Source: Parcubacteria bacterium C7867-001
GTDB lineage: Bacteria > Patescibacteriota > Minisyncoccia > Phycocordibacterales > Phycocordibacteraceae
DNA: 64,000 nucleotides
Reading direction: 5' to 3'
Assembly: GCA_001189095.1 (NCBI GenBank)
Contig: LFCK01000001.1
Location: 84,485 to 148,484 of the forward strand
The translations under genes and the position numbers were made by a program. Shown piece by piece: positions 16,160 to 37,945 of the stretch (its first letter is position 1; every line of letters starts with the position of its first letter). The notes beneath the pieces are model-generated. The model did not search any database and was not told the origin of the DNA. It saw only the letters and a list, made by a program, of their open reading frames with translations.

Positions 16160-16220
16160 ATAAAACGGGCGGGACCAAAGGTCCCGCCCGCATGGACGCC
16201 CGTGGCGTCCGTTTTTACTT
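16160..16220. terminator. Tandem terminator hairpins
   Basis: CGGGCGGGACC-AAAG-GTCCCGCCCG and GGACGCCCGTGGCGTCC followed by GTTTTTAC. Confidence 0.55.
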
Positions 16221-17978
16221 CGTGAGTTCAAGCTCGAGGTCGTCGAACTTCTTCACTCGCGGGAGCAGTTTTCCCGCACCCGGCTCATACTCGAGCCGGA
16301 CGCGGTCCTTCGCTTCCGCATACTTCACTTCGGGCGAGAGCGCCGACAGGATTGAATACTCCTGACTCGCTTTCCCGACTGTGAGCAGCATCCAGCGGCT
16401 CTTGCCGTCTGGATTTTCCGCGATGCGCACGATGACGCCTTCCGCGGTAGCTGTCGTGACCGTTTTCTGCTCGAACGCAGCGCCCGGCTTTTCTTGCAGC
16501 GCATCTTGGTAGAGGCGCAGCGCATCATCGATCGACTCGGACGCAGCAACGATTTGGTAATCGCGCACACTCGCAAAGGCATACATCCGCGGGATGCTGT
16601 CGTTGCCCGAGAGGGTCATGAAGTAGGTCGGGACGCCACCCATGTTGTAGAGGATGGCTTCTCCCGCCCCATACCGAGCTTTTTTGACTTCCGGATAATT
16701 CTCCACGGAACTCCGTGAAGCATCCTCGATCGCGCCGGGGATTTTATACCGCCGGACTTCCTTGGTCTTCGTATCGATGAGGATGAACCCCGTCGTCGAT
16801 TGATCGTTGCCGACCGAGGTGATGCCGGTGTACCAGTACGTGCGGCCATTAACTCCCTCCACGAGGTGGAGGAAATCGGTCGACGTCTGATACATACCGA
16901 ACTTGCTCGTCCAGCTGTTCATCCAGCCGCCGACGAATCGGCCCTGGTTGTCGAACTGTTCGATTGCCATTCCTTCCGGAACGACGCGGTCAACCCATGC
17001 TGGCACGTTTTTCATGTTGTACCAGTTGGTCGCACCGGTCGAGGGGTCAACGACCACCACGCCCGTTGCGTCGTCACCGCTGAAGCCGACGCGTTTCTGG
17101 TAGGTCGTCACGACCCACCATGGCTTGCCGGCGTCATCGAGCTCGAAGGTCGGTTCGGTAAGACCGAACCCTGCGTATCCGTGCCCCCGAAGGTGCCGGA
17201 TGAGGTAGTCGTTCCAGTGCGCGCCTTCCGCCATATAGCGAAGGTCGACCGGATTGCCGTTTACCGCGGTCACCAAGAGCTTGCGCTCCGGATCACTTGC
17301 CGACACGAGCACGTAGCCGTGCGTCGCATGGTTCGTGAACCAACGGAAGAATCCGCTGTGGACGAGCGGCGCCACCCAGACGAGCTCGTGCTCGAAGCAG
17401 ACTTTCTGCGGCGCCAAAGCGCCGAGCGTCGTCGCTTCGAAGCATCCGTTCATCTGCGAGATGTGCATCCGGCCGAGGTCCACTTGGGAACCAAGGCCTT
17501 GCTGCTCACCGAGCAATTTGTCGGCGATGCGAACGGCATACACGCCGTTCACGACACGCAATTTCTTCGTGTCGATCGGCGCCACGTCCTTGTCGAACGT
17601 CTGTGCTTCTTTCACAGGACCCATGAGGTCACGGTAGCCCTCCCAGCGGAAGAGCGGATCCGTGGTCATGAAGCCGACGATCCAGAAGCCAATGATGACG
17701 CTGACGAGGGCGCCGAAGCCAGTGATGTTTGGAGCTTCGTAGTCCGAACGAATGCACCCGAAGGCGCAGCCGATGGCGAACGCGAAGAAGCAGAGGTACC
17801 AGCACATGCTGAACCAACCGTTCACTGCCGGCACGAAGCTCCAACCGGCGAGGCCGATCAGGAGCCCAGCGACGACCGCCGAAGCGATATAGGCGCTTCG
17901 GTATTTCGAGAACGAGACCAAGCAGCCGAGCACGGCCAAGGCCGCACCGAGGGCTGCGTATATGAGGAATATTTCCAA
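16215..17978 (-). CDS. Membrane-anchored protein with large extracytoplasmic domain, hypothetical; TTG start
   Basis: Four N-terminal TM helices then ~450 aa with no recognised domain. TTG start with GGGGG RBS and a consensus promoter upstream. Confidence 0.55.
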   Translation of the reverse strand: MEIFLIYAALGAALAVLGCLVSFSKYRSAYIASAVVAGLLIGLAGWSFVPAVNGWFSMCWYLCFFAFAIGCAFGCIRSDYEAPNITGFGALVSVIIGFWIVGFMTTDPLFRWEGYRDLMGPVKEAQTFDKDVAPIDTKKLRVVNGVYAVRIADKLLGEQQGLGSQVDLGRMHISQMNGCFEATTLGALAPQKVCFEHELVWVAPLVHSGFFRWFTNHATHGYVLVSASDPERKLLVTAVNGNPVDLRYMAEGAHWNDYLIRHLRGHGYAGFGLTEPTFELDDAGKPWWVVTTYQKRVGFSGDDATGVVVVDPSTGATNWYNMKNVPAWVDRVVPEGMAIEQFDNQGRFVGGWMNSWTSKFGMYQTSTDFLHLVEGVNGRTYWYTGITSVGNDQSTTGFILIDTKTKEVRRYKIPGAIEDASRSSVENYPEVKKARYGAGEAILYNMGGVPTYFMTLSGNDSIPRMYAFASVRDYQIVAASESIDDALRLYQDALQEKPGAAFEQKTVTTATAEGVIVRIAENPDGKSRWMLLTVGKASQEYSILSALSPEVKYAEAKDRVRLEYEPGAGKLLPRVKKFDDLELELTK

Positions 17979-21614: not shown

Positions 21615-21685
21615 TTCTAAAGTTCCTTTCCATGGAAGAGGATGGATTCCCATTCGGCGATTGTCAAACTGATACCCCATCCATG

Positions 21686-23060
21686 CGATAGAATGAAGGG
21701 AATGGACGTGCTCACGCTCTCCCGCATCCAGTTCGCCGATACGGCGATTTTCCATATTATCTGGCCGCTTCTTTCCATCGGCCTCGCGTTCTACCTCGTG
21801 CTGATGGAGGGCATGTGGCTCCGCACGAAGGATGCAAAGTTCTATCACCAAGCGCGTTTCTGGACGAAAATCTTTGTGCTCACGTTTGCGATAGGCGTCT
21901 CGAGTGGTTTTCCTCTTTCCTTCCAGTTCGGTACCAACTGGGCGGAATTCAGCAAGGCGGCTGGCAGTTTCTTCGGCAATATCCTTGGATTCGAAACGAC
22001 GATTGCCTTTACACTCGAAACCGCATCGCTCGGCATTTTCCTCTTCGGCTGGAAGCGCGTTCCGAAAATCATCCACTTCCTTTCCGGTGTCGGCGTGTTC
22101 GTCGGCGCTTCGCTCTCGGGCTTCTGGATCGTCGTTGCTAATTCATGGATGCAGGTGCCGCGCGGCATTCACATGGAGGACGGGAAAATCATCGTCGACA
22201 ATTATATGGAGGCTATCTTCAATCCATCGTCCCTCGTTTCCTACGGGCATATGTGGCTTGCCTGCATCGAGACGACCCTCTTCTTTATGGCCGGTCTCTG
22301 TGCGCTTGCGCTTCTCAACAAAGCGAAGGAGAGCGCGTTTTTTCTCACCGCATTTAAATACGTGCTCGGGCTCATGCTCATCGTGACCCCGCTTCAAATT
22401 GGCTTTGGACACCTCATTGGTTTGGTTGTTGCTGAACATCAGCCAGCCAAGCTTGCAGCAAGCGAGCTGCACTGGGACGTGAACAAGCCGGGGGATGGGG
22501 CTGCATGGAACATCATTGCGTGGCCGAATGAGGAAGGAACAGGGAACGCGTTTGAGCTCGGCATTCCCGCAGGCCTCTCGCTTATCGTGACGGATTCGCT
22601 CACGGGCACCGTGCAAGGACTCAATGAGTTCCCGAAAGATGAGCGTCCGAATGCTATCGAAAGCACGATAACCTTCTACGCATTCCGTGTAATGGTTGCT
22701 ATCGGCGTCATTTTGCTTCTCCTTTCATTCCTTGGTGCGTGGTACTGGTGGAAGAAACGTCTCACGGTCGAAGGCGTACAGAAAGATCGTTTGTTCTGGT
22801 GGCTCTTCGTGGGGGCGTTGCCGCTCGGATTCATCGCAACCGAGGCGGGCTGGGTCGTGCGCGAAGTCGGCCGGCAGCCATGGGTCATGTATCACCTCCT
22901 TAAAACCTCAGACGCTGTCTCTGCGCATCTGGAGTCTTCAGTCATAAGTCTCTTCATCATTGGGCTCACAACCATTTTCGCCATCATGTTTATTTTGTTC
23001 GTCTTCTTCACGTATCGCATCGTTCGTGCGGGCCCTGATCTTTCCGCGCCTGTACCATGA
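21686..23060 (+). CDS. cydA: Cytochrome bd ubiquinol oxidase subunit I
   Basis: N-terminus MDVLTLSRIQFADTAIFHIIWP and Q-loop region GWKRVP...WMQVP fit CydA. Start could alternatively be 21677 or 21642. Confidence 0.8.
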
Positions 23061-24055
23061 CCGAATCTATCCTTCCAATCATCTGGTACTTCATCATCTG
23101 CGGCGAACTCGGTCTCTACATCCTGCTTGATGGCGCAAATCTCGGCATCGGCATCCTTTCTCTTTTTCCGCAGAAGGAAGAGGAGCGGGGAATCATGATG
23201 CGACTCTTGGGTCCGATTTGGAATGCGAATGAAACGTGGCTGCTGGTGGCAGCCGGCTCGCTCTTCGGCGCATTCCCTCTTGTATATGCAGTCGGCCTCA
23301 ATGCTCTCTACATACCGGCTGGTGTCATTCTCATCGGTCTTGCACTCCGCGCTGTGTCGTTTGAGTTCCATGCCTACGCGAACAATAAACGCTTCTGGAG
23401 CGGCATGTTCGGTGTTGCGAGCGCCATTCTCGTTGCGGGGCAAGGACTTGCGCTCGGAGGCTTACTGAGCGGCGTGAAAGTGGTTGATGGGAAGTTTGCA
23501 GGAAGCTTGTTCGACTTTGCGACGCCCGTTACGTTCCTCATAACCATCGGCATTTTCTTTAGTTACCTCGTACTGGGCTACGCCTACCTCATTCGGAATT
23601 CCTCGTATCAAAATTCAAATGAGACCTTTCCGCGCATTCTGATTGCGGCGGGAGGAACATTCATTGCACTGCTCGGCGCCACATTCCTCCTCCCAGAAAC
23701 GAACTACGTGTTTTTCGATCGTTGGACCATGTCGCCGACGATGTACTACCTCTTTGCGCTCGCGGGTGTTATTGGGTTTGTATCGGTTACGCTTGCGTAC
23801 TACGTCATCAAGAAAATACATCTCGAGCGCGTGTACTACTTGTGTCTCGGTATTTTCGTTTTAGGCGCACTTGGGATGCTTATCGGCACCTATCCGTATC
23901 TCCTCCCCGGTTCGATAACCATTTTCGAAGCGGCGTCTCCAGACTCGACGCTCTCCTTCATGCTCTGGGGTATCGGCCCGATTCTCCCCATCATCCTCCT
24001 CTACAACTTCTATCTCCATAAGATTTTTGCGAGAAAAACAGAGGGTGGGTACTAG
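23057..24055 (+). CDS. cydB: Cytochrome bd oxidase subunit II
   Basis: Overlapping start ATGA; polytopic 332-aa protein with CydB-like N-terminus IIWYFIICGELGLYILLDG. Confidence 0.7.
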   Translation: MTESILPIIWYFIICGELGLYILLDGANLGIGILSLFPQKEEERGIMMRLLGPIWNANETWLLVAAGSLFGAFPLVYAVGLNALYIPAGVILIGLALRAVSFEFHAYANNKRFWSGMFGVASAILVAGQGLALGGLLSGVKVVDGKFAGSLFDFATPVTFLITIGIFFSYLVLGYAYLIRNSSYQNSNETFPRILIAAGGTFIALLGATFLLPETNYVFFDRWTMSPTMYYLFALAGVIGFVSVTLAYYVIKKIHLERVYYLCLGIFVLGALGMLIGTYPYLLPGSITIFEAASPDSTLSFMLWGIGPILPIILLYNFYLHKIFARKTEGGY

Positions 24056-24071: not shown

Positions 24072-24100
24072 TTGACTAATGGCATAAAGTATGATATATT
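24072..24100 (+). promoter_or_regulatory. Sigma70-like promoter TTGACT-17-TATATT inside a GGGGTTAA...TTAACCCC inverted repeat
   Basis: Read directly from the sequence; precedes the membrane-protein ORF. Confidence 0.45.
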
Positions 24101-24143
24101 AAGGTTAACCCCATGTGGGGCAAACCAAGGAAAGGGTCCTTAC

Positions 24144-24743
24144 GTGCAACAACCTAATCCTGCAAAATGGACGCTTGGTCCGATTGATCTCTCGTTCTTC
24201 CAGAACGTCAGTCAGTCGTTCATGCGATTCCATGACCGGCACATCTTTGTGCGTGCCGTGTCGCAACTCGTCGTCGTTCTTTCAATCATCGCTGGCGGCC
24301 TCGCGGCCTGCTACGGCCTCATCGCCATGATGTTTGGCGTTGCCAACCTCGTCATGAAGATGCTGTCTATCGGCGACGCAACGTCGCCGTACTGGGCGTA
24401 CGCCCTCTTCGGCATTGGCGGTCTCGCGTTCGCATACGCGTGCTGCGCGTTCGTCGTCTTCGTCGGGCAGGCTGTTACGCAACGGACGCTCCAAGTGCTG
24501 ATTTCGGGGTTCTGCATCCCGGGCGGCTTACTCTTGGCGTATGCCGGATTCGGGATGGCGCAGGTCCTCGACCTGCTTCACCTGAACTTCTGGCATATGT
24601 TCGGCTACGTCGACGCTGTGGGCGTCTTCTTCGGCTGGGCGCTCGGGCTGGGCGGTTTATGCATGGTAGTTTTGGGGGCACTCGTTGCCTTCATGTCGCC
24701 AGCTGAATTCGTCGAGTATCGCGCTCGCCAAGCGACGGTCTAA
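24144..24743 (+). CDS. Membrane protein, hypothetical; start uncertain (GTG at 24144 after AAGGAAAGG, or 24072)
   Basis: Five hydrophobic helices; downstream of cydAB with its own promoter. Confidence 0.4.
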   Translation: MQQPNPAKWTLGPIDLSFFQNVSQSFMRFHDRHIFVRAVSQLVVVLSIIAGGLAACYGLIAMMFGVANLVMKMLSIGDATSPYWAYALFGIGGLAFAYACCAFVVFVGQAVTQRTLQVLISGFCIPGGLLLAYAGFGMAQVLDLLHLNFWHMFGYVDAVGVFFGWALGLGGLCMVVLGALVAFMSPAEFVEYRARQATV

Positions 24744-24801
24744 CCATACGGTCGCACGGACCTTTAACTCGTGCACAGGGTCACCGCAAGGTGGCCCTGA
24801 A

Positions 24802-27210
24802 TTATTTCATGCTGGTGATCATGTCCCGCTCGATATCCGCGAAGGTACCACCAATTTTCTTGCCCGGATTGAAGATACTGAGTGGATCAAAAATGGTTTT
24901 GGTCTCGCGGAAGAGCTCCATCATCTTGGGGCCATATTGCTGTTCGAGATACGGTGTGCGAATGATGCCGTCGTTATGCTCGCCGGTCGTTGTACCGCCA
25001 TATTTGAGGACGAGGTCATACACTTTTGGTGCGAGCTCAAGAATGATTTTTCGTTGCTCGGGCTTCGTTACGTCCATGAGCGGAATGATATGGAAATTGC
25101 CGTTGCCGATGTGTCCAGCGGTCGTTTCAATGAGGTCGTATTTCCCGAGAAGTTCGTAGAGTTCCGGCAGGAATTTTGGATAGGTGTCGATAGGTACAAC
25201 GAAGTCGTCGATGAACGGCGAGGCGTAAAGGCCGGAAAGGTTTTTGCGTAGGAGCGCGAAACTTTCGCGTCGTACAATCCAGTATTTTTCTGCTGCCTGT
25301 TCGTTTTTTGCGATACGGGTCGGGAGCTTCATATCCTCAAGCTCCATCTGCGCGTCTTTTGCGCGACGGAATGCTGCGTCGGCGGAATCGTCCGAAAATT
25401 CCGCCATAAGGACGAGCTTCGGCACACCACCGCGCAGGACGAGCGAGACTTCAGGAAGGAAAGAAAGTCCGAGACGCACCGCTCGAGCAAGGCCCATCTG
25501 GGAAAGCATTTGCGGAAGGAAACGGATCGCGAGATTAAAGGTGTGATCGTCGTAGGACTCAAACGACTCAGGATTGTGCTTTATGACGCGATGCACTATT
25601 TCCGGAAGATGCGCGATATCTGAAAGGAAAACGATGAGCATCGCGCGGTGTTCCTTTGGCTTTACCAACGAGAGGGTCATCGAGGTTGTGAGTGCGAGCG
25701 TACCCTGCGCACCACAAATGAGCTTTGCGAGATTCATCGTGCCATTTTGGAAATCCATAACGTCCCAGAGCGCGTAGCCGGCGGAATTCTTCGAGATGTG
25801 TGGCTCGGCTGTTTGGATAACGCCGCGATTCTCGATGAGAAGCTTCGTCATTCTTCGGTAAATTTCGCCTTCCAGATTATCCTGTTTCTTTTTTTCTAGG
25901 AGTTCGTCGGGGCCAAGCTCTTTGAAGGTGGCTTGTGAGCCATCGGAAAGAACGACATCGACCGCTTCGATGTAGCGGCGGGTTTTTCCATATTCGAGCG
26001 TGCGCTCTCCTCCTGAGTCGTTGTTCACAATGCCGCCCATGCCCGCGATGGAGCGCGAAGCGGGGTAGGAAGGAAGAATAGCGTGATGCTTAAGCGTTTC
26101 CTTTTCGAAGTCGCGGTAGTAGGCCCCCGGCTCGGTTGTTGCTTCCTTTTCGGAGACAGGTCCGATGCGGTTCATATATTTGGTGAATACGGCGACGACG
26201 GAATTCGTGAGAGGACCTCCCGACATGTCGGTGCCTGCTGCGCGAGCGGTGACAGACACTTGTTCTCCGTGCTGCTTTGCTTCGCCGACGACACGAACAA
26301 GGGTGGACACGTCGTCTGCGTCTTTCGGGTACGCCACAAGGGAAGGTGTGCGGGTGAAGAGACTGGTGTCGCGGGAATATTTCTTGCGCTCTACAGCGTC
26401 GACTGAAAGGTCTCCTTTGAAGGATTCACGCAGCGTTTCCATGAGCGAGGTTTCGCTCCCTTCAGATCCGAGAATCTCGTCGATAGCACTCGCTGTTTCA
26501 AGAGGGCCGCTTACCTGTCGTGTTTTTATTCCAGTCTCTTTAACTACCTCGTCATTACCTCCCGCGAAAAGTGCGTCGCCCACGTAGAGCATTTCTGAAA
26601 CGGGCGTGCTAATCATTTGGGAAAACTTCCGAATGCCGTATGCCTTAGAAATGCCTTCTTTGGTGATGTCGATTGAGGTCGCGGCATTCATGCGGATGAA
26701 GTAGTGCGGCAGTCGCTTCACGAGTTCGTCAAAAAGCGGTTGGCGCTTTTTCCGATCAGGATCCCAGGCTTTCTTTTCAGCGGGAGGAGCTTCTTGTCCA
26801 AGTGCGGAGAAGGTGACTTCAGCGCCGCGGTCTTCGATGCGCTCGCCCCATGTTCGCTCGGGCGGGTTGGAAAATCCGGTTTTTGCCATAGCATCGTCGA
26901 GCGCGCGGAGTACTTCGCGACGCTCCGCGTCCGAGAAAGAATTGTCGTAGATGAGCGACCATCCGCCGTTCGTGAATTGGTAGCAATAACCAGCGGATAC
27001 GGGGAACAGAGAGAGATTTTTGAAATTCGCATTCTTCGGGAATGCTGGCAGAAGCTGGCGTTCGAACTGGTGCCATGCGCCGCCGCTCATGACGGCGACT
27101 GGATGCGTTGTGAGGAGTTTTGCGAGCACGGCACCCATCGCTGGCGTTACGGCTGACTTGCTTTCTGAAAGCGTTCCGTCGAGATCAAAGATAATCGCCT
27201 TGGTGCTCAT
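24802..27210 (-). CDS. Fusion protein: N-terminal HAD-IIB phosphatase/mutase-like domain plus C-terminal FAD-linked oxidase (FAD_binding_4 + FAD-oxidase_C)
   Basis: FDLDGTL HAD motif I at the N-terminus. Residues ~270-802 carry a PCMH-type FAD-binding domain (DADDVSTLVRVVGEAKQHGEQVSVTARAAGTDMSGG) and C-terminal GGTTTGEHNDGIIRTPY. Confidence 0.65.
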   Translation of the reverse strand: MSTKAIIFDLDGTLSESKSAVTPAMGAVLAKLLTTHPVAVMSGGAWHQFERQLLPAFPKNANFKNLSLFPVSAGYCYQFTNGGWSLIYDNSFSDAERREVLRALDDAMAKTGFSNPPERTWGERIEDRGAEVTFSALGQEAPPAEKKAWDPDRKKRQPLFDELVKRLPHYFIRMNAATSIDITKEGISKAYGIRKFSQMISTPVSEMLYVGDALFAGGNDEVVKETGIKTRQVSGPLETASAIDEILGSEGSETSLMETLRESFKGDLSVDAVERKKYSRDTSLFTRTPSLVAYPKDADDVSTLVRVVGEAKQHGEQVSVTARAAGTDMSGGPLTNSVVAVFTKYMNRIGPVSEKEATTEPGAYYRDFEKETLKHHAILPSYPASRSIAGMGGIVNNDSGGERTLEYGKTRRYIEAVDVVLSDGSQATFKELGPDELLEKKKQDNLEGEIYRRMTKLLIENRGVIQTAEPHISKNSAGYALWDVMDFQNGTMNLAKLICGAQGTLALTTSMTLSLVKPKEHRAMLIVFLSDIAHLPEIVHRVIKHNPESFESYDDHTFNLAIRFLPQMLSQMGLARAVRLGLSFLPEVSLVLRGGVPKLVLMAEFSDDSADAAFRRAKDAQMELEDMKLPTRIAKNEQAAEKYWIVRRESFALLRKNLSGLYASPFIDDFVVPIDTYPKFLPELYELLGKYDLIETTAGHIGNGNFHIIPLMDVTKPEQRKIILELAPKVYDLVLKYGGTTTGEHNDGIIRTPYLEQQYGPKMMELFRETKTIFDPLSIFNPGKKIGGTFADIERDMITSMK

Positions 27211-29135
27211 ATGTTTGGAAGAAGTTTCTTCATAAGCGCGCTTTTTGAAACCGTTGCTACTGCAAGCGCAGAATCTCCGCCGCCGTAATACACGAAGAGT
27301 GTATCTTCACGCAGGATGGAACCGCAGGAGAAGACCACGTTTGGGATTTCACCGATACGCTCCCAATCCAGTAGTGGCTCGAGTATAGGAACCGCGCTGC
27401 GTGCGAGTACCGAGACCCCGTCGGCTCCAAGGAGTGCCGCTCCAAGACGGTAGGCGTGATCGTGCCCAACGCCATGGTAGATGAAGAGCCAGCCCTCAGG
27501 AACTTTTATAGGTGGCCCGGCAGCGCCTATCTTTATTCCGTCCCACATTCCCGGACGCGGACCCATGACCTCGATACAACGGTTCGCGACGCGTTCAAAC
27601 TCAGTTGATTCAAACTGGTCGGCGCAGATGGTCGGGTCGAGTCGGTGGAGGAGCATCACTTTTCCATTCACGAGCTCGGGAAAAAGAGCGAGATCTTTGT
27701 CCGCAACGTCTTCCGGCGTCACCAGTTTTGGCGTCGCCCACTCCGTGAATTTCTTTGCGCGGAATGCGTCGACGGAAATAGAGCTTATCGTGCCGCGCGG
27801 CGGATGCACGCCGTCGTACGACGTATAGCAAAGGTAGATGGTGTCGCCGATGCGTGTGAGACGCGGATCTTCGCAGCCTGAATTGCCGTGCGCGTCACCA
27901 AGTTTTTGTTCGAATGGTTCGCGTGGGAGATATACGGGCGCGTCGAGTTTCTCATCGATATGCAGTCCGTCTTTGAGTCGTGCATAGCCAAGCACCGAAG
28001 TGTTTTCGAGACCCATGGCTCGATAGAGAAGATGTATCGAACCATCAAGATCGATTGCGGCAGCGTTCATCACATTCTTTGACTCCCATGAGTGTTCAGG
28101 ATTCGGTTCGAGAATGGGATTGTGCTGCACGCGGGTAAGGAACATCGAGCGCTTGGTTTCGCTCATCGTGTCGTAGAGGTCGGCAAACGAAAGTGCTGCC
28201 GTTGCGCACGAAGTGTCGGCGGCTCCGTAGTAAATCTCAAGGCGGTCGCCATTGAGGAGCGCGCCCGAGGGGAAGACGACGTTCGCAACGAGTCCGTAGC
28301 GTTCGTAAAACTCTTCTGGGACCATGAAGGGATAGGCGGTCTTTGCGAGCACTTTGCGCGGATCAGAAGCGTCGAGGATGAGTGCTTCTACCCCGAAAAT
28401 GCGTGCGTGCTCGTCGTAATAATTCTGTATGTGCGAATAGACGAGCAACCATCCATGCTCGGTCTTGATGGGTGTTGCTGCGACCTCCATGTGTTCGCTA
28501 TCGGCGCGACGAACGTCTGGAAGGGCGTGTTCGCCCAGATTCTGGTGCCACGCTTCCCAGTATGTTGGATTGAAAAAATCAGAAACTTCTTTTGCGCGCG
28601 CAATGCCGATGGTCGGGCGCGGATGCTCGGGGGTAAAGTCAGTATGTGCGGTAAGGAGAAGACAGACTTCACCGTCGACGCGCTCAGGGAAGAGTGTCAT
28701 CGCTTTTGCGTTAAAGGGCGTGATGAGGTGCTTTTCGGTGAGGGCGTCCGGCGTGGTGCCCATCGCGACTGCGCATTTAATGTTGTCTGGGCCAAACGGG
28801 TAGCCGCCAAGTGCGGTATAGAAGACGTACCACTTTCCTTCAAAAAAAGTTGCGCGTGGATCCTCGCAGCCATACGCGTCCCACGATTCAGACGGCGCGA
28901 TGACGCGTGTACGCTCGCTGGTAAGTCCGCCATTTGCAAAGAGTGCGTGGCCGATAGTTGAGAAGCTGCGATCCGGCGTCCGCAGTTTGTCCGGTTCCGC
29001 TCCAGCGCGATAGAAGATATGCGTATCGCCGTTCGTTCGAACGGCCGAAGGATTATATGCAGCGACATTTTCCCAGCCGTGCTCGCGCATCGGCGTAATG
29101 AGGGGGTTCTTGCTTGAGCGTTGTATGGCAAGCAT
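27207..29135 (-). CDS. Tandem glycoside hydrolase family 130 (GH130) protein, mannoside phosphorylase-like
   Basis: Two GH130/DUF377-like units, each with NP(L/I)(I/L)(T/E)P...W...NP.A...G...YRA...G.A...DG.H...P...GCEDPR. Confidence 0.65.
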   Translation of the reverse strand: MLAIQRSSKNPLITPMREHGWENVAAYNPSAVRTNGDTHIFYRAGAEPDKLRTPDRSFSTIGHALFANGGLTSERTRVIAPSESWDAYGCEDPRATFFEGKWYVFYTALGGYPFGPDNIKCAVAMGTTPDALTEKHLITPFNAKAMTLFPERVDGEVCLLLTAHTDFTPEHPRPTIGIARAKEVSDFFNPTYWEAWHQNLGEHALPDVRRADSEHMEVAATPIKTEHGWLLVYSHIQNYYDEHARIFGVEALILDASDPRKVLAKTAYPFMVPEEFYERYGLVANVVFPSGALLNGDRLEIYYGAADTSCATAALSFADLYDTMSETKRSMFLTRVQHNPILEPNPEHSWESKNVMNAAAIDLDGSIHLLYRAMGLENTSVLGYARLKDGLHIDEKLDAPVYLPREPFEQKLGDAHGNSGCEDPRLTRIGDTIYLCYTSYDGVHPPRGTISSISVDAFRAKKFTEWATPKLVTPEDVADKDLALFPELVNGKVMLLHRLDPTICADQFESTEFERVANRCIEVMGPRPGMWDGIKIGAAGPPIKVPEGWLFIYHGVGHDHAYRLGAALLGADGVSVLARSAVPILEPLLDWERIGEIPNVVFSCGSILREDTLFVYYGGGDSALAVATVSKSALMKKLLPNI

Positions 29136-29137
29136 AG

Positions 29138-30301
29138 CTAGGTGAAAGCGAGTGCGGGAGCGACGGGATGAATCGGCTTCGGTGCCTTGAGACGCTTGAG
29201 AAAACCTCCGAGTTCAATTTTTGCGGAGCAAACCACTGTATCTGCAGCGCCATAGTACACACGCAAAAATCCATCTTGTATCAGCGCACCGCATGCGTAC
29301 ACAATGCCTGATTTCGCGCCTTCGTTTTCGTAGTGCGCGTCGGGCACCAGTGCCGGAACTGAGGAGCGCGCGATGACTTTGCGTGGGTCTGCAAGATCGA
29401 GGAGTGCTGCGCCAAGCTTGTATCGATGTGATTCGTGGTCGGTCGCGTGATAGAGCACGAGCCATCCTTCGGGGGTCCGTATCGGCGGCGGTCCTGCACT
29501 ACGCATGCGCTTGTGCCACGATATCGGGTTGTCGGGCAGTGCGTTTGGATCGGGACTCTCTGTCTTCAGCTGGCTTGGCGTAAACGAGGCGATATCTTCA
29601 ACGTAATCGACGCGAACCGATGAAGGGTCTCCCGTGTGAAGATTGTGGAGTACGGCAAAATTCCCCTGTATCTTTCCGGGAAAGAGCACCCAGTTCTTGT
29701 GCCGCTCTCCCTGAGGCGATAGAAATACGGGTTTCGTCCAGCGCCACCGTTTGTGGGTGAGATCGTCAAGGGAGATGGAGGTAATCGCAACGCGCATCGA
29801 ATCCCAGCCATTGAACAAATTGTAGGTAAGGTACATGCGATCATCGATGACGACCGCGCGCGGGTCTTCAACACCGCTCCAACTTCCTCCTGAGCCGTAG
29901 AGTCCTGGATCGTACTTCGCATTTTTCGGATCGTATGGCTGAACGTTTTGGTGCGCGAACACCGGATAGGGAAGTCGTTCATCAAAATGCACCCCATCCT
30001 TACTCGATGCATACCCAATGCGCGAAACGCCGTCGGCGCCTATCGCTCGATAAAAAAGATGCACCTTACCATCCGCTTCAACGACGCCGGGATTCATAAC
30101 GGCGTTCTGCTCCCAGTCATACGTGGTTGCCTTAAGAATTGGATTAGCCTCTTCGCGGGAGAGCCCAAGCGAGCGGGTAAACGCAATGAGACGCTCGTGG
30201 AATTCTATCCACCGGGCAAGTTTCCAGAACGCGTAAAGCATCAATCCGGTCGTACCGAGCGCGAAGAGGAGTGCGGCGAGAAGCGCAAGAAGCTCCAGCA
30301 T
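29138..30301 (-). CDS. Membrane-anchored GH130-family protein
   Basis: N-terminal TM helix, then NPILKATTYDWEQNAVMNPGVVEADGKVHLFYRAIG...GVEDPR. Confidence 0.65.
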   Translation of the reverse strand: MLELLALLAALLFALGTTGLMLYAFWKLARWIEFHERLIAFTRSLGLSREEANPILKATTYDWEQNAVMNPGVVEADGKVHLFYRAIGADGVSRIGYASSKDGVHFDERLPYPVFAHQNVQPYDPKNAKYDPGLYGSGGSWSGVEDPRAVVIDDRMYLTYNLFNGWDSMRVAITSISLDDLTHKRWRWTKPVFLSPQGERHKNWVLFPGKIQGNFAVLHNLHTGDPSSVRVDYVEDIASFTPSQLKTESPDPNALPDNPISWHKRMRSAGPPPIRTPEGWLVLYHATDHESHRYKLGAALLDLADPRKVIARSSVPALVPDAHYENEGAKSGIVYACGALIQDGFLRVYYGAADTVVCSAKIELGGFLKRLKAPKPIHPVAPALAFT

Positions 30302-30304
30302 AGA

Positions 30305-30658
30305 TTAGGTGCGTCCGAAATCGTCTTCCATGCGCTCGATATCGTTTTCGTCGTATTCACCAAAAGAAATTTCAAGAACTGAAATTCCTTCATCGCTACC
30401 GGACAGACGATGTAGTGTTCCTGCAGGAATTTCTATGACATCTCCCTTTGAAACCGCGCGCTCCTCAGTTCCTACGGTCGCCGTGCCGCTTCCCTCTATG
30501 ACGCGCCAGTATTCGGAGCGCTTGCTGTGCTTTTGCAGGGAAAAGCGCTTATTTGGCAGGACGTGAAGTATTTTTACGGTCGTCGCTTCATTGCTCGTGA
30601 AGCGCTCGGGGGTGCCCCAAGGCCTTGATTCGTCGGAATAGTAGGAAAGCAGGGACAT
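30305..30658 (-). CDS. Cupin-domain protein, mannose-6-phosphate isomerase (type II, ManC C-terminal) like
   Basis: RPWG...VKILHVLPNKRFSLQKHSKRSEYWRVIEGSG...IPAGTLHRL...EISFGEYDENDIERMEDDFGR matches the PMI cupin motif. Confidence 0.65.
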   Translation of the reverse strand: MSLLSYYSDESRPWGTPERFTSNEATTVKILHVLPNKRFSLQKHSKRSEYWRVIEGSGTATVGTEERAVSKGDVIEIPAGTLHRLSGSDEGISVLEISFGEYDENDIERMEDDFGRT

Positions 30659-30706
30659 GGCAGTCTCTTTTCCTTAAGTATAGCGTGCGTACGTGCCGCT
30701 TATGTA

Positions 30707-30735: not shown

Positions 30736-30768
30736 AAAGGCGCGCCCTAGGGGCGCGCCTTTGCTTTA
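30733..30768. terminator. Intrinsic terminator
   Basis: AGGCGCGCCC-TAG(G)-GGGCGCGCCT then TTGCTTT; serves the minus-strand gene 30766..31200. Confidence 0.55.
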
Positions 30769-34935: not shown

Positions 34936-37899
34936 ATGAAGCAAGTCAAGAAGCGCAATGGTTCCGTCGTCGATTTCGAAGTAGTGAAGATTACCGATGC
35001 AATGCGTAAGGCGTTCAACGCCATGAGTACGCCAGTGTCCGAAGAACGTTTGTCGGACATGACACGCAATATTTTGATACATATCGAGGAACGGTTCGTT
35101 GACACCGTTCCTTCGGTGGAGCACGTGCAGGACATCGTGGAGTTGACCATCATGCAGGAAGGCTTCCACGCAGTCGCGAAGCACTACATCGTTTATCGCT
35201 ACGAGCACGCGAAGATCCGCGAAGCGAAAAAGGAGGAAGAAGTCGCAAAAATCGAGGAAGAAGGCCTCATGATCACCACGCGTGGGGGGAACAAGGTGCG
35301 CTTTGACGAGAGTCGCGTGAAAGAGACTCTGCTCCGCTTCTTGAAGGGCTATGAGGATGTGATCGACGTGAATCTGGTCATGAATCAGCTCCGTTACGAG
35401 CTCTACGAAGGCATCACGACGGACGAAATCCATCGCGGTCTCACGATGGTGGTGCGCTCGATGATCGAGCGCGATCCGGCATACTCGAAAGTTGCTGCTC
35501 GTCTCTTGCTTCACAAGATGTATGGCGATGTGTTTGGCTCCTTTGACTCAGCGAACATTAAGCAGGAGCATGTCGGTGTCTTCGAGCGCAACATCAAGGA
35601 TATGGTGGCGCGCGAGCTCCTCGACACGCGCATGCTCGAGTTCAATCTCGCCAAGCTTGCAAGCATGATGGAGCCAGATCGTGACCACCACTTCGAGTAC
35701 ATGGGCCTTGAAATCATGAGTACTCGCTACTGCCTCGAGGACCCAGAGACCAAGAAGGTGCTTGAGACTCCGCAGATGCTCTGGATGCGCATCGCCATGG
35801 GTACGGCGCTTAACGAGAAGCCGGAAGATCGCGAACGCGTTGCACTCGACTTCTATGATGTGCTCAGCAATTTCTATTACACGCCGGGCGGACGCACGCT
35901 CTTCCAAGCGGGCGCAAAGAAAGCGCAGCTTTCTAACTGCTTCCTCAACACGGTGCCGGACTCGCTTGATTCGATCTTCAAGGCAATTTCCGACAACGCG
36001 CAATACCTCAAGTGGTCAGGCGGTACCGGAACGGACTGGACTCCACTACGCGCTACAGGTGCCTTCATCAAGGGCACTGGTGTGCCGAGCCAGGGCATCG
36101 TGCCGTTCCTCAAGATTGCGAACGATGTGAACCTCGCCATAAACCGCTCAGGTAAGCGCCGTGGCGCCGGCTGCGTGTACCTTGAGACGTGGCACATGGA
36201 CATCGAGGACTTCCTCGAACTCCGTAAGAACACGGGCGACGAGCGCCGTCGCACGCACGACATCAATACCGCGAACTGGATTCCGGACCTCTTCATGAAG
36301 CGCGTTCGCGACAATAAGGAGTGGACGCTCTTCTCGCCAGACGAAGTGCCCGATCTCCATGAAATTTATGGTCGCGCATTCGAAGAGAAATACGTGCAGT
36401 ACGAAAAAATGGCAGAAGAGGGCAAGATTAAGCTCTACAAGAAAATTCCAGCAATTGACCTCTGGAAGAAAATGCTCGCGATGCTTTTCGAAACCGGTCA
36501 CCCGTGGATCACGTGGAAGGATCCTTCGAACGTTCGTTCGCCGCAGGATCACGCAGGCGTCGTGCACAACTCAAACCTCTGCACAGAAATCACCCTCAAC
36601 ACGAACGCAGAAGAGACTGCCGTCTGCACCATCGGTTCGCTTAACTTCGCGAAGTTCGTAGTGAATGGAAAGTTCGATGAGCAGCTCGTTGCCCGCGTGA
36701 CCCGCTCAGCTATTCGCATGCTCGACAACATCATCGACCTCAACTACTACCCAACGGAAGATGCGCGTCGCGGCAACATGCGCCATCGCCCAGTCGGTCT
36801 CGGCGTACGCGGTTATCATGATGCGCTCTACACCCTCGGCATCGACTTCGACTCGCAGGAGGCGGTCGCCTTCGCGAACGAAAGCATGGAAGTCATGGCG
36901 TACTACGCTATTCTCGCGTCGTCCGAGCTCGCAAAGGAGCGCGGTACGTATGAGACGTATAAGGGAAGTAAGTGGGACCGCGGCATCATGCCGCAGGACA
37001 CCATTGCGCTTCTTGCTGCTGAGCGCGGCGAAGAAATCCGCGTACACCTTGGCGGCAAGCTCGACTGGGCTCCGGTAAGGAATCACGTGAAGGAATACGG
37101 CATGCGCAACTCCAACACGATGGCTATCGCGCCAACCGCCTCGACTGCAAACCTCGTGGGCTGCATCCCGTGCGTTGAGCCTATCTACAAGAACATCTAC
37201 GTGAAATCGAACAAGGAAGGTGAGTTCATCGTCGTGAACAAATACCTCATCGAAGACCTCAAGAAGCTGGGTCTCTGGACGGAAGACATGCTCAACAAAA
37301 TTAAGCATGCCGACGGTTCGGTGCAGAGCATTGCGGAGATTCCGGAACACATTCGCCGTAAGTACAAGGAAGTCTTCGAAATTGACTCGCGCTGGCTCAT
37401 CGAAGCAGCTGCAGAACGCGGCAAGTGGATCGACCAGTCACAGTCTTTGAACATCTTCTTCAACGGCACGAGCGGGAAGGAGCTCTCTGACATCTACTTC
37501 TTCGCATGGCAGAAGGGTCTCAAGACGACCTATTACCTACGTACGCTCGGAGCCTCGCAGGTGGAGAAGGCAACGGTTTCGACAGCGGAATACGGTTCGA
37601 GCCACACTCGCGGTCAGGAGAGCTCGGTCATCGCGATGGCAGCAATCGCTGAGATAAAGGAATCCATCGCCCAGCCAGACGCGGTAGCAATTCCAGCAAT
37701 GGCCATGGCTACTTCTCCGGTCACCATGTCACCAAATCCGACTCCCGTAGTCTCAGCACCCGTTACGGCCTCGGCGTCGCCCATGATGATGGCTTCAGGT
37801 GCTCCGGTGCCGTCCATGACGACCGCTGAGCTCGCTGCAAAGCTTGCACGCGTGGCGGCAGGAGAAGAGGCAGGTATCTGCGAAAGCTGCGAAGCCTAA
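34936..37899 (+). CDS. nrdA: Ribonucleoside-diphosphate reductase alpha subunit (class I) with N-terminal ATP-cone and ~100-aa Ala/Pro/Met-rich C-terminal extension ending CESCEA
   Basis: ATP-cone VKKRNGSVVDFEVVKI; catalytic NLCTEI; C-terminal redox Cys pair. Confidence 0.9.
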   Translation: MKQVKKRNGSVVDFEVVKITDAMRKAFNAMSTPVSEERLSDMTRNILIHIEERFVDTVPSVEHVQDIVELTIMQEGFHAVAKHYIVYRYEHAKIREAKKEEEVAKIEEEGLMITTRGGNKVRFDESRVKETLLRFLKGYEDVIDVNLVMNQLRYELYEGITTDEIHRGLTMVVRSMIERDPAYSKVAARLLLHKMYGDVFGSFDSANIKQEHVGVFERNIKDMVARELLDTRMLEFNLAKLASMMEPDRDHHFEYMGLEIMSTRYCLEDPETKKVLETPQMLWMRIAMGTALNEKPEDRERVALDFYDVLSNFYYTPGGRTLFQAGAKKAQLSNCFLNTVPDSLDSIFKAISDNAQYLKWSGGTGTDWTPLRATGAFIKGTGVPSQGIVPFLKIANDVNLAINRSGKRRGAGCVYLETWHMDIEDFLELRKNTGDERRRTHDINTANWIPDLFMKRVRDNKEWTLFSPDEVPDLHEIYGRAFEEKYVQYEKMAEEGKIKLYKKIPAIDLWKKMLAMLFETGHPWITWKDPSNVRSPQDHAGVVHNSNLCTEITLNTNAEETAVCTIGSLNFAKFVVNGKFDEQLVARVTRSAIRMLDNIIDLNYYPTEDARRGNMRHRPVGLGVRGYHDALYTLGIDFDSQEAVAFANESMEVMAYYAILASSELAKERGTYETYKGSKWDRGIMPQDTIALLAAERGEEIRVHLGGKLDWAPVRNHVKEYGMRNSNTMAIAPTASTANLVGCIPCVEPIYKNIYVKSNKEGEFIVVNKYLIEDLKKLGLWTEDMLNKIKHADGSVQSIAEIPEHIRRKYKEVFEIDSRWLIEAAAERGKWIDQSQSLNIFFNGTSGKELSDIYFFAWQKGLKTTYYLRTLGASQVEKATVSTAEYGSSHTRGQESSVIAMAAIAEIKESIAQPDAVAIPAMAMATSPVTMSPNPTPVVSAPVTASASPMMMASGAPVPSMTTAELAAKLARVAAGEEAGICESCEA

Positions 37900-37911
37900 T
37901 TCGCTAAAAAG

Positions 37912-37945
37912 TAAAAAGGCCTCACGCTTGTGAGGCCTTTTTACT
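37912..37945. terminator. Intrinsic terminator after nrdA
   Basis: AAAAAGGCCTCAC-GCTT-GTGAGGCCTTTTTAC. Confidence 0.65.

What the first reader, a model, noticed from the sequence alone, without database searches (positions are those of the whole stretch)
24802..27210. Unusual single-polypeptide fusion of a HAD-IIB sugar-phosphatase/mutase-like domain to an FAD-linked oxidase
The first ~265 aa carry the HAD motif I (IFDLDGTLSES) and IIB-type cap features, as in phosphomannomutase or mannosyl-3-phosphoglycerate-phosphatase-type enzymes. The rest is a complete FAD_binding_4 plus FAD-oxidase_C enzyme (GlcD/D-lactate-dehydrogenase-like). It is the last gene of an operon whose other members make and process mannose phosphates, which suggests a channelled dephosphorylation/oxidation step on a sugar phosphate or sugar acid. 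I do not recognise this domain combination as a described enzyme.
Basis: partly seen in the sequence, partly recalled or inferred. Interest (0 to 1): 0.55.

Follow-up and report, generated by a model that had tools for sequence, protein, structure and literature searches.

The report
Sugar-phosphate mutase fused to lactate-type dehydrogenase
In this tiny groundwater bacterium, two neighbouring genes (a sugar-phosphate mutase ending a mannose-sugar operon and a flavin enzyme that oxidises lactate-like acids) have merged into one real protein, most likely because they lay side by side, not because they pass a substrate between them.

Summary
Window 24802-27210 (-) is one intact 802-aa ORF. Residues 1-250 are a HAD-IIB phosphohexomutase closest to Lactococcus alpha-phosphoglucomutase and eukaryotic-type phosphomannomutases. 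A six-residue linker follows. Residues 257-802 are a complete FAD-dependent D-2-hydroxyacid dehydrogenase of the D-lactate type.

It is not a frameshift. The identical protein is on five contigs, and 47 further full-length homologues exist, all in Paceibacteria (CPR).

The channelling interpretation is not supported:
- In relatives the two parts are usually separate genes. The closest relative has the same operon with a 7-nt gap between them.
- The stand-alone HAD gene sits directly after GH130 mannoside-phosphorylase genes.
- The stand-alone FAD gene usually has its own promoter-like box and often no HAD neighbour. It is often followed by a quinol oxidase (alternative oxidase or cytochrome bd).
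- Conserved residues and evolutionary rate are the same in fused and split HADs.
- The aligned dehydrogenase pocket residues are hydrophobic, which argues against sugar acids or phosphates.

Best reading: stop-codon loss fused the operon's phosphomannomutase to the next gene downstream, and both activities were kept. The architecture is undescribed, but the biology is probably ordinary. Interest is modest. The link between the dehydrogenase and quinol oxidases is the more interesting by-product.

The parts
24802..27210 (-). Whole fusion ORF: 802 aa plus stop, HAD-type phosphohexomutase joined to FAD-dependent D-2-hydroxyacid dehydrogenase
   Evidence: Identical to P0001 from Parcubacteria bacterium C7867-001. 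Recorded on 5 contigs.
26461..27210 (-). HAD-IIB domain of the APGM/PMM type, residues 1-250. Motif I is D9-x-D11-x-T13, motif II is S42, motif III is K189, and motif IV is G211-D212...G217-G218-N219-D220. Cap residues are R128, Q139, K146, W149 and D150.
   Evidence: PDB 4BND at E = 2e-32 over residues 4-250. Foldseek TM 0.89, rmsd 2.4 A. These residues are invariant in fused and stand-alone homologues.
26443..26460 (-). Short linker, residues 251-256 (EGSETS...L). In homologues it ranges from about 5 to about 60 residues and is rich in P, A, S and T.
   Evidence: Alignment A1. pLDDT is below 50 at residues 249-253. In the split relative L081 this position holds a TAA stop and a 7-nt spacer.
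24805..26442 (-). FAD-dependent D-2-hydroxyacid dehydrogenase module, residues 257-802. FAD_binding_4 covers 289-427 and FAD-oxidase_C covers 520-784. The metal and catalytic residues are R647, H700, H707, E744 and H745. The inferred side-chain pocket is F651, I667 and I709.
   Evidence: Residue roles are taken from mouse LDHD (PMC10589216). M257 aligns with the start Met of stand-alone homologues.
27207..29135 (-). Tandem two-domain GH130 protein (642 aa). Its stop overlaps the fusion's start codon as ATGA.
   Evidence: Pfam GH130 with two matched stretches. NCBIfam beta-1,2-mannobiose phosphorylase model scores 401 bits against a cut-off of 450. Overlap read directly from the sequence.
29138..30301 (-). 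GH130 protein (387 aa) with an N-terminal hydrophobic anchor
30305..30658 (-). Cupin of the mannose-6-phosphate isomerase type (117 aa); first gene of the operon
   Evidence: NCBIfam GMP_PMI C-terminal region, E = 8.5e-19. The orthologue in L081 carries PF01050.
30677..30682 (-). TATACT -10-like box 18 nt upstream of the cupin ATG; likely the operon promoter
   Evidence: Read from the sequence. The same box type precedes many genes in relatives and in the window.
30737..30761 (-). GC-rich 10-bp hairpin plus T-run directly after the preceding ORF; terminator-like upstream boundary of the operon
   Evidence: Read from the sequence.
24776..24799 (.). 10-bp stem-loop between the fusion's stop and the convergent gene; terminator-like downstream boundary
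21642..24055 (+). Cytochrome bd quinol oxidase subunits I and II, convergent with the fusion; a possible electron sink for the dehydrogenase module
   Evidence: Pfam. The same adjacency occurs in L020, L023, L033 and L034. It is noted in the genome paper PMC4508563.

Best explanation
The protein is a two-enzyme polypeptide. It arose when the stop codon and short spacer between two neighbouring genes were lost.

The N-terminal part is a HAD-type alpha-phosphohexomutase, meaning a phosphomannomutase and/or phosphoglucomutase that works through an aspartyl-phosphate intermediate. It is the last enzyme of a conserved Paceibacteria operon: cupin mannose-6-P isomerase, then a GH130 gene, then a tandem GH130 gene, then the HAD gene. 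The GH130 phosphorylases release alpha-mannose-1-phosphate from beta-mannosides. The HAD domain converts it to mannose-6-phosphate, and the cupin converts that to fructose-6-phosphate. The route could also run in reverse.

The C-terminal part is the gene that normally lies next downstream. It is a metal- and FAD-dependent D-2-hydroxyacid dehydrogenase with a small hydrophobic substrate pocket. D-lactate is the default guess for its substrate, and glycolate is possible. It probably hands electrons to a quinone and on to a terminal quinol oxidase, which here is the cytochrome bd encoded next door.

The two reactions are not consecutive. The fusion mainly places the dehydrogenase under the mannoside operon's promoter and fixes a 1:1 stoichiometry. 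It does not channel a substrate.

Shown by the data: the domain identities, the conserved catalytic residues, the operon structure, the occurrence of split and fused states in relatives, and the unchanged constraint on the HAD domain. Inferred: the actual substrates, quinone as acceptor, and the absence of channelling.
For: Domain identities:
- HAD part: 4BND alpha-phosphoglucomutase at E = 2e-32 over the full length, and Foldseek TM 0.89.
- FAD part: FAD-dependent D-lactate dehydrogenases 9QIT, 9QGZ and 8JDS at TM 0.82-0.84.
- H700, H707, E744, H745 and R647 align with the Mn and substrate residues H398, H405, E442, H443 and R347 of mouse LDHD. F651, I667 and I709 align with its hydrophobic pocket residues W351, S365 and I407.

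Origin by adjacency:
- The closest relative of the FAD part (79% identity) has the identical operon, but with HAD (250 aa) and FAD (548 aa) as separate genes 7 nt apart.
- Among 80 species-level loci, 6 are fused, 16 have HAD directly upstream as a separate gene, 18 have it 0.8-7 kb upstream, and 31 have none within at least 3 kb.
- Fused states fall in at least 3 places on the FAD tree.

HAD belongs to the mannoside module:
The HAD start overlaps the last GH130 stop by 4 nt, and no FAD gene lies within 6 kb.
- The same arrangement is seen in 13 of the 80 loci.

FAD is an independent unit:
- A TATACT or TATAAT box ends 6-11 nt before its ATG in about 39 of 65 unfused loci, including loci where HAD is adjacent.
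- No such box lies before M257 in the window.

No change of function after fusion:
- The invariant residues are the same in 47 fused and 119 stand-alone HADs.
- HAD identity tracks FAD identity equally in fused and split pairs: mean residual -1.7 against an SD of 6.2.
- The linker varies in length and is low-confidence in the model.

Quinone link:
- An alternative oxidase gene (PF01786) follows the FAD gene on the same strand in 11 loci, in 8 of them 12-23 nt after the FAD stop.
- Cytochrome bd lies next to it in 5 loci including the window, and DoxX in 4.
- A Pyr_redox_2~FAD-oxidase fusion exists elsewhere.
Against: - There are no activity data of any kind.
- HAD and FAD remain adjacent in about 10 loci that have no GH130 gene nearby. 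This could mean a functional tie, not just inherited gene order.
- The fusion has been kept across proteins only 54-67% identical, and seems to have arisen or been lost more than once. That could reflect a selective advantage beyond co-expression.
- PMM-family enzymes can also act as phosphatases (own knowledge: PMM1 is a glucose-1,6-bisphosphatase), so a phosphatase role is not excluded.
- These bacteria lack quinone synthesis (PMC4508563), which leaves the acceptor uncertain.
- The 80 loci were chosen through the FAD part, my gene calling was crude, and the neighbour-joining tree has no support values.
Confidence: 0.6

Rival explanations
1. Pathway-level coupling without a shared intermediate. 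The dehydrogenase module is a true member of the carbohydrate module. For example, it might oxidise the D-lactate (or another small D-2-hydroxyacid) made from the mannoside-derived hexose phosphates and pass the electrons to oxygen. On this reading the fusion is selected because it ties sugar entry to disposal of the end product.
For: In various relatives the FAD gene lies downstream of, and on the same strand as, carbohydrate genes. These include the GH130 module, a GT4/5 + GH57 + GH15 alpha-glucan set, and a PGI/PMI + ROK kinase pair. HAD-FAD adjacency persists without GH130 in about 10 loci. The fusion has been retained over long divergence.
Against: The FAD gene keeps a fixed syntenic position (ABC transporter ... 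FAD, RRM protein, HemK, HisS) whatever lies upstream, and usually has its own promoter-like box. At least 31 loci have no HAD within 3 kb or more.
Confidence: 0.12
2. One reading: a channelled phosphatase-then-oxidase. The HAD domain removes phosphate from a phosphorylated hydroxy-acid or sugar acid and the FAD domain oxidises the product. One concrete version is 2-phosphoglycolate to glycolate to glyoxylate.
For: The two domains are in one chain with a very short linker in this genome. There are faint matches to archaeal HAD-IIB phosphoglycolate phosphatases: NCBIfam PRK01158 at E = 0.0018 over 37 residues and 1WR8 at E = 0.45. F651 occupies the position of F341 in GlcD. HAD > FAD > AOX gene runs occur in L005 and L046, and in L027 with one gene between FAD and AOX.
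Against: The HAD match to the mutase APGM is about 30 orders of magnitude stronger and spans the cap. The cap residues R128, Q139, K146, W149 and D150 are those of APGM and are identical in the GH130-linked stand-alone HADs. The FAD gene occurs without HAD in many genomes. The linker is long and variable in most fused homologues.
Confidence: 0.08
3. Regulatory fusion. One domain has become a sensor. For example, the HAD domain might bind hexose phosphates and gate the dehydrogenase, having lost its own catalysis.
For: None directly. It is only that fusions of this type sometimes evolve in that direction.
Against: All catalytic residues of both domains are invariant in the fused proteins. The HAD domain's evolutionary rate relative to the FAD domain is unchanged by fusion.
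Confidence: 0.04
4. Artefact: a sequencing or assembly frameshift merged two genes in this assembly.
For: The closest relative has two genes only 7 nt apart, so a single error could in principle fuse them.
Against: The identical 802-aa protein is recorded on five contigs of different lengths. There are 47 further full-length fused homologues from different sources. Both domains are in frame across a coding linker that contains no remnant stop.
Confidence: 0.01

Closest known systems
Lactococcus lactis alpha-phosphoglucomutase PgmH/APGM (PDB 4BND), a HAD-IIB enzyme of the eukaryotic phosphomannomutase family
   Same: The alignment runs over the full length (residues 4-250, E = 2e-32, about 30% identity) and the fold matches at TM 0.89. 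All four HAD motifs are shared, as are the cap residues R, Q, K and W-D-P-D.
   Different: APGM is a stand-alone 253-aa enzyme characterised on glucose phosphates. Here the domain is fused to a flavoenzyme and is genetically tied to GH130 mannoside phosphorylases and a mannose-6-P isomerase, so mannose phosphates are the more likely substrates. Activity has not been tested.
FAD- and Mn-dependent D-lactate dehydrogenases: mouse LDHD (8JDE and related entries) and the Porcellio dilatatus enzyme (9QIT, 9QGZ)
   Same: Same two-domain fold (TM 0.82-0.84). The Arg, His, His, Glu, His substrate and metal residues are conserved, and the side-chain pocket positions are hydrophobic.
   Different: Identity is only about 20%. 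The module is roughly 90 residues longer than these structures (546 aa against about 455-470); the extra residues lie in stretches that align only with gaps to them, roughly 427-520 and 535-600. The physiological acceptor is unknown, and there is an N-terminal HAD domain.
E. coli YdiJ, D-2-hydroxyglutarate dehydrogenase (NCBIfam NF049975)
   Same: It is the best curated profile match to the FAD module: residues 256-785 against model positions 18-539, 236 bits.
   Different: The score is far below the equivalog cut-off of 1350. The whole C-terminal Fe-S/CCG half of YdiJ is absent. The pocket positions are hydrophobic, not the polar or basic residues that bind the second carboxylate in D2HGDH.
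Split HAD + FAD gene pair in sister Paceibacteria (locus L081, proteins P0302 and P0047)
   Same: Identical operon order and gene sizes: cupin, GH130 of 384 aa, tandem GH130 of 642 aa, HAD, FAD. The FAD part is 79% identical and the HAD part 58%.
   Different: There are two genes separated by a TAA stop and 7 nt, not one ORF.
Bifunctional HisB of E. coli, a HAD-type histidinol-phosphate phosphatase fused to imidazoleglycerol-phosphate dehydratase (own knowledge, not tested here)
   Same: A HAD domain is fused to an unrelated enzyme that catalyses a non-consecutive step. It is split in many other organisms.
   Different: In HisB both steps belong to one linear pathway. Here the two reactions have no demonstrated common pathway.

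Membership tests
HAD superfamily, subclass IIB, APGM / eukaryotic-type phosphomannomutase group | Motif I DxDxT, holding the nucleophile and the acid/base Asp | tested here: met
   F8-D9-L-D11-G-T13 is invariant in 26 aligned fusions, and in 47 fused and 119 stand-alone homologues.
HAD superfamily, subclass IIB, APGM / eukaryotic-type phosphomannomutase group | Motif II (Ser/Thr), motif III (Lys) and motif IV (GDxxxxGGND) | tested here: met
   S42 (Ser or Thr in homologues), K189, and G211-D212...G217-G218-N219-D220 are all conserved.
HAD superfamily, subclass IIB, APGM / eukaryotic-type phosphomannomutase group | C2B cap between motifs II and III, carrying the residues that hold the second phosphate or sugar | tested here: met
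   The cap aligns without large gaps to 4BND and the fold matches at TM 0.89. R128, Q139, K146, W149 and D150 are the same as in APGM, and R128 and K146 align with R123 and R141 of PMM2.
HAD superfamily, subclass IIB, APGM / eukaryotic-type phosphomannomutase group | Reaches the curated profile thresholds | tested here: inconclusive
   TIGR01484 HAD-SF-IIB scores 52 bits against a cut-off of 41.8, which is met. Pfam PMM (PF03332) was not reported for the window protein at E <= 0.01. It is, however, on record for many fused homologues and, as a weak hit, for the L081 orthologue.
HAD superfamily, subclass IIB, APGM / eukaryotic-type phosphomannomutase group | Hexose-1-P/6-P mutase activity that depends on a hexose-1,6-bisphosphate | not testable with these tools
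   This needs an enzyme assay. The only indirect support is gene context with GH130 and PMI genes.
FAD-linked D-2-hydroxyacid dehydrogenases (VAO/PCMH superfamily; LDHD, GlcD, D2HGDH, YdiJ) | FAD_binding_4 plus FAD-oxidase_C domains | tested here: met
   79 and 149 bits, both well above the cut-offs. Fold TM is 0.82-0.84 to D-lactate dehydrogenases.
FAD-linked D-2-hydroxyacid dehydrogenases (VAO/PCMH superfamily; LDHD, GlcD, D2HGDH, YdiJ) | His/His/Glu metal site, catalytic His and carboxylate-binding Arg | tested here: met
   H700, H707, E744, H745 and R647 align with H398, H405, E442, H443 and R347 of mouse LDHD (roles from PMC10589216). They are invariant in A1.
FAD-linked D-2-hydroxyacid dehydrogenases (VAO/PCMH superfamily; LDHD, GlcD, D2HGDH, YdiJ) | Equivalog of a named enzyme (YdiJ or GlcD) by NCBIfam cut-off | tested here: not met
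   YdiJ scores 236 bits against a cut-off of 1350. GlcD scores 171 against 568 and 111 against 897. The Fe-S/CCG half of YdiJ is absent.
FAD-linked D-2-hydroxyacid dehydrogenases (VAO/PCMH superfamily; LDHD, GlcD, D2HGDH, YdiJ) | Substrate identity (D-lactate, glycolate or another acid) and electron acceptor | not testable with these tools
   There are only inferences: hydrophobic pocket positions F651, I667 and I709, and neighbouring AOX, cytochrome bd and DoxX genes.
GH130 beta-mannoside phosphorylase gene cluster (context of the fusion) | GH130 catalytic domains together with enzymes that process mannose-1-P (PMM, PMI) | tested here: met
   Three GH130 domains in two genes, a PMI-type cupin and the HAD domain lie in one tightly packed transcription unit. 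The equivalog cut-off for beta-1,2-mannobiose phosphorylase is not reached (401 against 450 bits), so linkage specificity is open.

The most novel reading that the evidence does not exclude
The HAD domain might not be a mutase in vivo. It might be a phosphatase for a small phosphorylated D-2-hydroxy acid, for example 2-phosphoglycolate, which I would expect RuBisCO-type enzymes to form in oxic water (an assumption from general knowledge; no RuBisCO gene was checked here). The FAD domain would then oxidise the released acid and pass the electrons to the adjacent quinol oxidase (cytochrome bd here, alternative oxidase in relatives). That would make the fusion a self-contained two-step detoxification and respiration line in a bacterium with almost no other redox metabolism.
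Probability: 0.07. Interest if true: 0.7.

Novelty: new variant of a known kind. Interest (0 to 1): 0.3.

Why it matters
- **Annotation.** Pipelines name the protein after only one of its halves: "oxygen-dependent FAD-containing oxidoreductase", "HAD-IIB hydrolase" or "phosphomannomutase". Metabolic reconstructions of these minimal CPR genomes can therefore lose either the only recognisable phosphohexomutase or the dehydrogenase.
- **Method.** This is a worked example showing that a fusion in a tightly packed genome can arise from mere adjacency. Close relatives have the same two genes 7 nt apart, and the second gene often has its own promoter. A fusion of this kind is therefore weak evidence for a shared pathway.
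- **Biology.** The comparative work suggests two testable ideas about Paceibacteria. One is a conserved beta-mannoside phosphorylase, PMM and PMI module. The other is a widely conserved D-lactate-type flavoenzyme paired with alternative oxidase or cytochrome bd. That pair could be a minimal oxygen-consuming electron route in organisms said to lack respiration and quinone synthesis.

Tried and rejected
- **Frameshift or assembly artefact.** Rejected.
- **Internal promoter or internal start producing a separate FAD protein from the fused gene.** No -10 box lies before M257 in the window, and the Met is not conserved among the fusions.
- **Mannosyl-3-phosphoglycerate phosphatase or Cof-type phosphatase identity for the N-domain.** No such model scored. 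The Cof subfamily model gave 32 bits against a cut-off of 137.
- **D-2-hydroxyglutarate dehydrogenase or YdiJ identity for the C-part.** The score is below the cut-off, the Fe-S half is missing, and the pocket is hydrophobic.
- **Ascorbate-like route (PMI, PMM, then an aldonolactone oxidase).** Considered from memory and rejected. The C-terminal domain is FAD-oxidase_C with the 2-hydroxyacid metal site, not an ALO-type domain, and none of the intermediate enzymes is in the operon.
- **Relaxed or altered selection on the HAD domain after fusion.** Not seen.
- **Predicted interdomain packing.** The model gives pTM 0.63 and a low-confidence linker. No PAE or coordinates are available, so this is uninformative.
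- **Literature searches.** I searched for the source genome, for redox enzymes and GH130 in CPR bacteria, and for APGM specificity. No search queried the HAD+FAD architecture directly. None of the papers found describes the fusion, and the original APGM papers are not in the library.
- **Rest of the window.** Scanning the larger remaining ORFs for lactate or glycolysis genes found none.


Full report
**What is there.** Window 24802-27210 on the minus strand is a single open reading frame of 802 codons with an ATG start. It is 100% identical to a protein of the metagenome-assembled genome "Parcubacteria bacterium C7867-001", where it is named "oxygen-dependent FAD-containing oxidoreductase". 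That genome comes from Hanford aquifer water (PMC4508563). The genome paper does not discuss this gene.

**The two halves.**
- Pfam finds FAD_binding_4 (residues 289-427) and FAD-oxidase_C (520-784), plus a weak Hydrolase_3 match.
- NCBIfam places residues 6-221 in HAD subfamily IIB above its cut-off. It matches residues 256-785 to the N-terminal half of the YdiJ model, far below that model's cut-off.
- Against PDB sequences, residues 4-250 align end to end with the atypical alpha-phosphoglucomutase of Lactococcus lactis (4BND, E = 2e-32). They align more weakly with eukaryotic-type phosphomannomutases.
- The rest matches FAD-dependent D-lactate dehydrogenases, LctD and D-2-hydroxyglutarate dehydrogenase.
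- An AlphaFold model built on 26 homologues has mean pLDDT 82 and pTM 0.63, with low confidence exactly at the junction, residues 249-253.
- Foldseek returns D-lactate dehydrogenases for the C-part (TM 0.82-0.84) and 4BND for the N-part (TM 0.89, rmsd 2.4 A). Among the 50 best matches listed, none spans both parts.

**Catalytic residues.** In 26 fused homologues all four HAD motifs are invariant: D9, D11 and T13; S/T42; K189; and D212 with G218-N219-D220. So are the cap residues R128, S135, Q139, K146, W149 and D150. The cap residues R128, S135, Q139, K146, W149 and D150 are the residues found in APGM, a proven mutase.

In the flavoenzyme part, R647, H700, H707, E744 and H745 align with R347, H398, H405, E442 and H443 of mouse LDHD. 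Those are its carboxylate-binding Arg, Mn ligands and catalytic base (PMC10589216). The positions that align with its side-chain pocket (W351, S365, I407) are F651, I667 and I709. This pocket is therefore small and hydrophobic, of the D-lactate or glycolate kind. It is not the polar and basic pocket that binds a second carboxylate in D2HGDH. The mapping rests on a sequence alignment only.

**Not an artefact, but narrowly distributed.** The identical protein is recorded on five contigs of different lengths. Forty-eight clusters at 90% identity, counting its own, have proteins longer than 780 aa, drawn from NCBI, JGI, ENA and Logan. The listed fused homologues are 54-67% identical, and the 26 aligned in A1 carry both domains. 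In a library of 1.84 billion representatives at 50% identity, only one representative among the 150 best hits shows both domains. The fusion therefore appears confined to one clade of Paceibacteria. The best 120 homologues of the HAD part alone are all stand-alone proteins of about 250 aa. Stand-alone FAD proteins of about 548 aa are abundant and reach 80% identity.

**Operon in the window.** The upstream genes on the same strand are:
- a PMI-type cupin (30305-30658);
- a GH130 protein with an N-terminal hydrophobic anchor (29138-30301);
- a two-domain GH130 protein (27207-29135).

Their best curated match is beta-1,2-mannobiose phosphorylase, just below the cut-off. The genes are separated by 2-3 nt, and the last GH130 stop overlaps the fusion's start as ATGA. 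The unit is preceded by a GC-rich hairpin with a T-run and by a TATACT box 18 nt before the cupin ATG. It is followed by a stem-loop at 24776-24799. Cytochrome bd subunit genes lie convergently downstream.

**Comparative context.** I fetched 80 species-level loci that hold close relatives of the FAD part; all are Patescibacteria MAGs. I analysed them with my own scripts.
- HAD and FAD are in one ORF in 6 loci.
- HAD is a separate gene directly upstream in 16 loci. In three of these it is in the same frame, separated by a stop codon and a short spacer.
- HAD lies 0.8-7 kb upstream on the same strand in 18 loci.
- No HAD lies within at least 3 kb in 31 loci.

When HAD is separated from FAD, it sits directly behind GH130 genes (13 loci). 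GH130 genes occur in 31 loci and the cupin in 18.

Three stand-alone HADs, chosen only for long contigs, all directly follow GH130 reading frames with a 4-nt overlap and have no FAD gene within 6 kb. In two contexts these are a GH130 gene and one intact tandem GH130 gene; in the third (L086) the tandem gene is called as three shorter GH130 ORFs. The FAD gene, in contrast, keeps a fixed syntenic place: ABC transporter, then FAD, then an RRM protein, HemK and HisS. Whatever lies upstream does not change this.

In about 39 of 65 unfused loci, a TATACT or TATAAT box ends 6-11 nt before the FAD start codon. This includes loci where HAD is adjacent. It is a promoter-like arrangement of the leaderless type, and it is also seen before about 11 of 63 ORFs in the window. 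No such box precedes M257 in the window's fusion.

**How the fusion arose.** The closest relative of the window's FAD part (79% identity) has the very same operon, with gene sizes of 119, 384, 642, 250 and 548 aa. Its HAD gene ends in TAA, and the FAD gene starts 7 nt later. More distant relatives are fused. On a neighbour-joining tree of the FAD parts, fused states fall in at least three places among adjacent and unlinked states, and one split genome is nested inside a fused group. The tree has no support values. So fusion or fission has happened more than once, starting from an ancestral adjacency.

Fusion did not change the HAD domain. The invariant residue set is the same in 47 fused and 119 stand-alone proteins. 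Across all pairs of loci, HAD identity is about 16 points lower than FAD identity whether or not the proteins are fused (residual -1.7, SD 6.2). The linker ranges from about 5 to about 60 residues and is rich in Pro, Ala, Ser and Thr.

**What the dehydrogenase probably feeds.** Downstream of the FAD gene, relatives carry an alternative oxidase gene (PF01786, above cut-off) on the same strand in 11 loci. In 8 of these it begins 12-23 nt after the FAD stop. Convergent cytochrome bd genes occur in 5 loci including the window, and DoxX in 4. Two unrelated quinol oxidases at the same position next to the same gene suggest that the flavoenzyme reduces a quinone. A Pyr_redox_2~FAD-oxidase fusion elsewhere points the same way. 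The caveat is that these genomes have no quinone biosynthesis (PMC4508563).

**Most likely mechanism.** The N-domain is the phosphomannomutase/phosphoglucomutase of the mannoside module: GH130 releases alpha-mannose-1-P, the HAD domain makes mannose-6-P, and the cupin makes fructose-6-P, or the reverse. The C-module is a D-lactate-type dehydrogenase that works independently. The fusion is the product of stop-codon loss between tightly packed neighbours. It brings the dehydrogenase under the operon's promoter but does not create a new reaction. I put this at about 0.6.

**Rivals.**
- Pathway-level coupling without a shared intermediate: 0.12.
- A regulatory role for one domain: 0.04.
- An artefact: 0.01.

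The remaining probability is for things I have not thought of.

**Comparison with what is known.** Each half is a member of a known family by every sequence and fold feature I could test. Neither reaches an equivalog cut-off for a named enzyme. The combination is, as far as the searched literature and PDB go, undescribed. I therefore rate it as a new variant (a new architecture) of known kinds, with modest interest.

**Limits of this work.**
- There are no activities.
- The loci were selected through the FAD part.
- Gene calling was a greedy longest-ORF procedure.
- Only three HAD-centred contexts were sampled.
- The pocket assignment is alignment-based.

Noticed in passing
Loci L005, L027, L032, L035, L038, L039, L043, L045, L046, L053, L069 (alternative oxidase); window 21642-24055 and L020, L023, L033, L034 (cytochrome bd); L021, L041, L043, L078 (DoxX): In Paceibacteria the stand-alone FAD dehydrogenase gene is followed by an alternative oxidase gene on the same strand, in 8 loci only 12-23 nt after its stop. 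Elsewhere it lies next to cytochrome bd or DoxX genes. This looks like a minimal dehydrogenase plus quinol oxidase pair in bacteria reported to lack quinone synthesis and respiration.
   Followed up: partly
window 27207-30658 (-); also L081 3792-7993, L084, L085, L086: Many Paceibacteria share a conserved module: PMI-type cupin, membrane-anchored GH130 (384-387 aa), an unusual tandem two-domain GH130 (634-652 aa) and a HAD phosphomannomutase. The best curated match is beta-1,2-mannobiose phosphorylase (401 bits against a cut-off of 450). It hints at beta-mannoside use or storage in CPR bacteria.
   Followed up: partly
window, e.g. before the ORFs starting at 5286 (+), 8111 (-), 13781 (-), 33747 (+), 58065 (-); also before FAD genes in about 39 of 65 related loci: A TATACT or TATAAT box ends 6-11 nt before the start codon. 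This suggests that leaderless transcripts are common in this lineage.
   Followed up: partly
window 30737-30761 (-) and 24776-24799: A perfect 10-bp GC-rich hairpin with a T-run lies just upstream of the operon promoter. A second 10-bp stem-loop lies between the convergent ends of the fusion gene and the ORF at 24072-24743. Both are probable terminators that delimit the operon.
   Followed up: no
proteins P0162, P0237, P0212 (from; domains): The same two domain families are fused differently elsewhere: Pyr_redox_2 joined to the FAD oxidase (950 aa), a histidine-phosphatase/phosphoglycerate-mutase-type domain joined to the HAD mutase (492 aa), and the HAD mutase joined to a Gmad2 Ig-like domain (508 aa).
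   Followed up: no
L004 10700-10830, L005 and L019, same region: In three relatives, including Parcubacteria C7867-004 from the same study, the HAD and FAD genes are in the same reading frame. They are separated only by a stop codon and a 25-50 nt spacer that holds the FAD promoter-like box. This looks like one mutational step away from fusion.
   Followed up: yes
window 24072-24743 (+): A 223-aa multi-pass membrane ORF lies directly after cydB and has no Pfam or NCBIfam match. In the JGI copy of the contig a 199-aa gene is called at this position.
   Followed up: no
window 34936-40355 (+): A LexA-like repressor gene (37950-38720) sits between the genes for the large (34936-37899) and small (39231-40355) subunits of class I ribonucleotide reductase.
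   Followed up: no
window 16215-17978 (-), 47635-49623 (-), 55285-57051 (-), 1982-2914 (+), 8120-11017 (-): Several large ORFs (310-662 aa) have no Pfam match at E <= 1e-5. A 965-aa ORF has only an LCAT-like lipase/acyltransferase segment.
   Followed up: no
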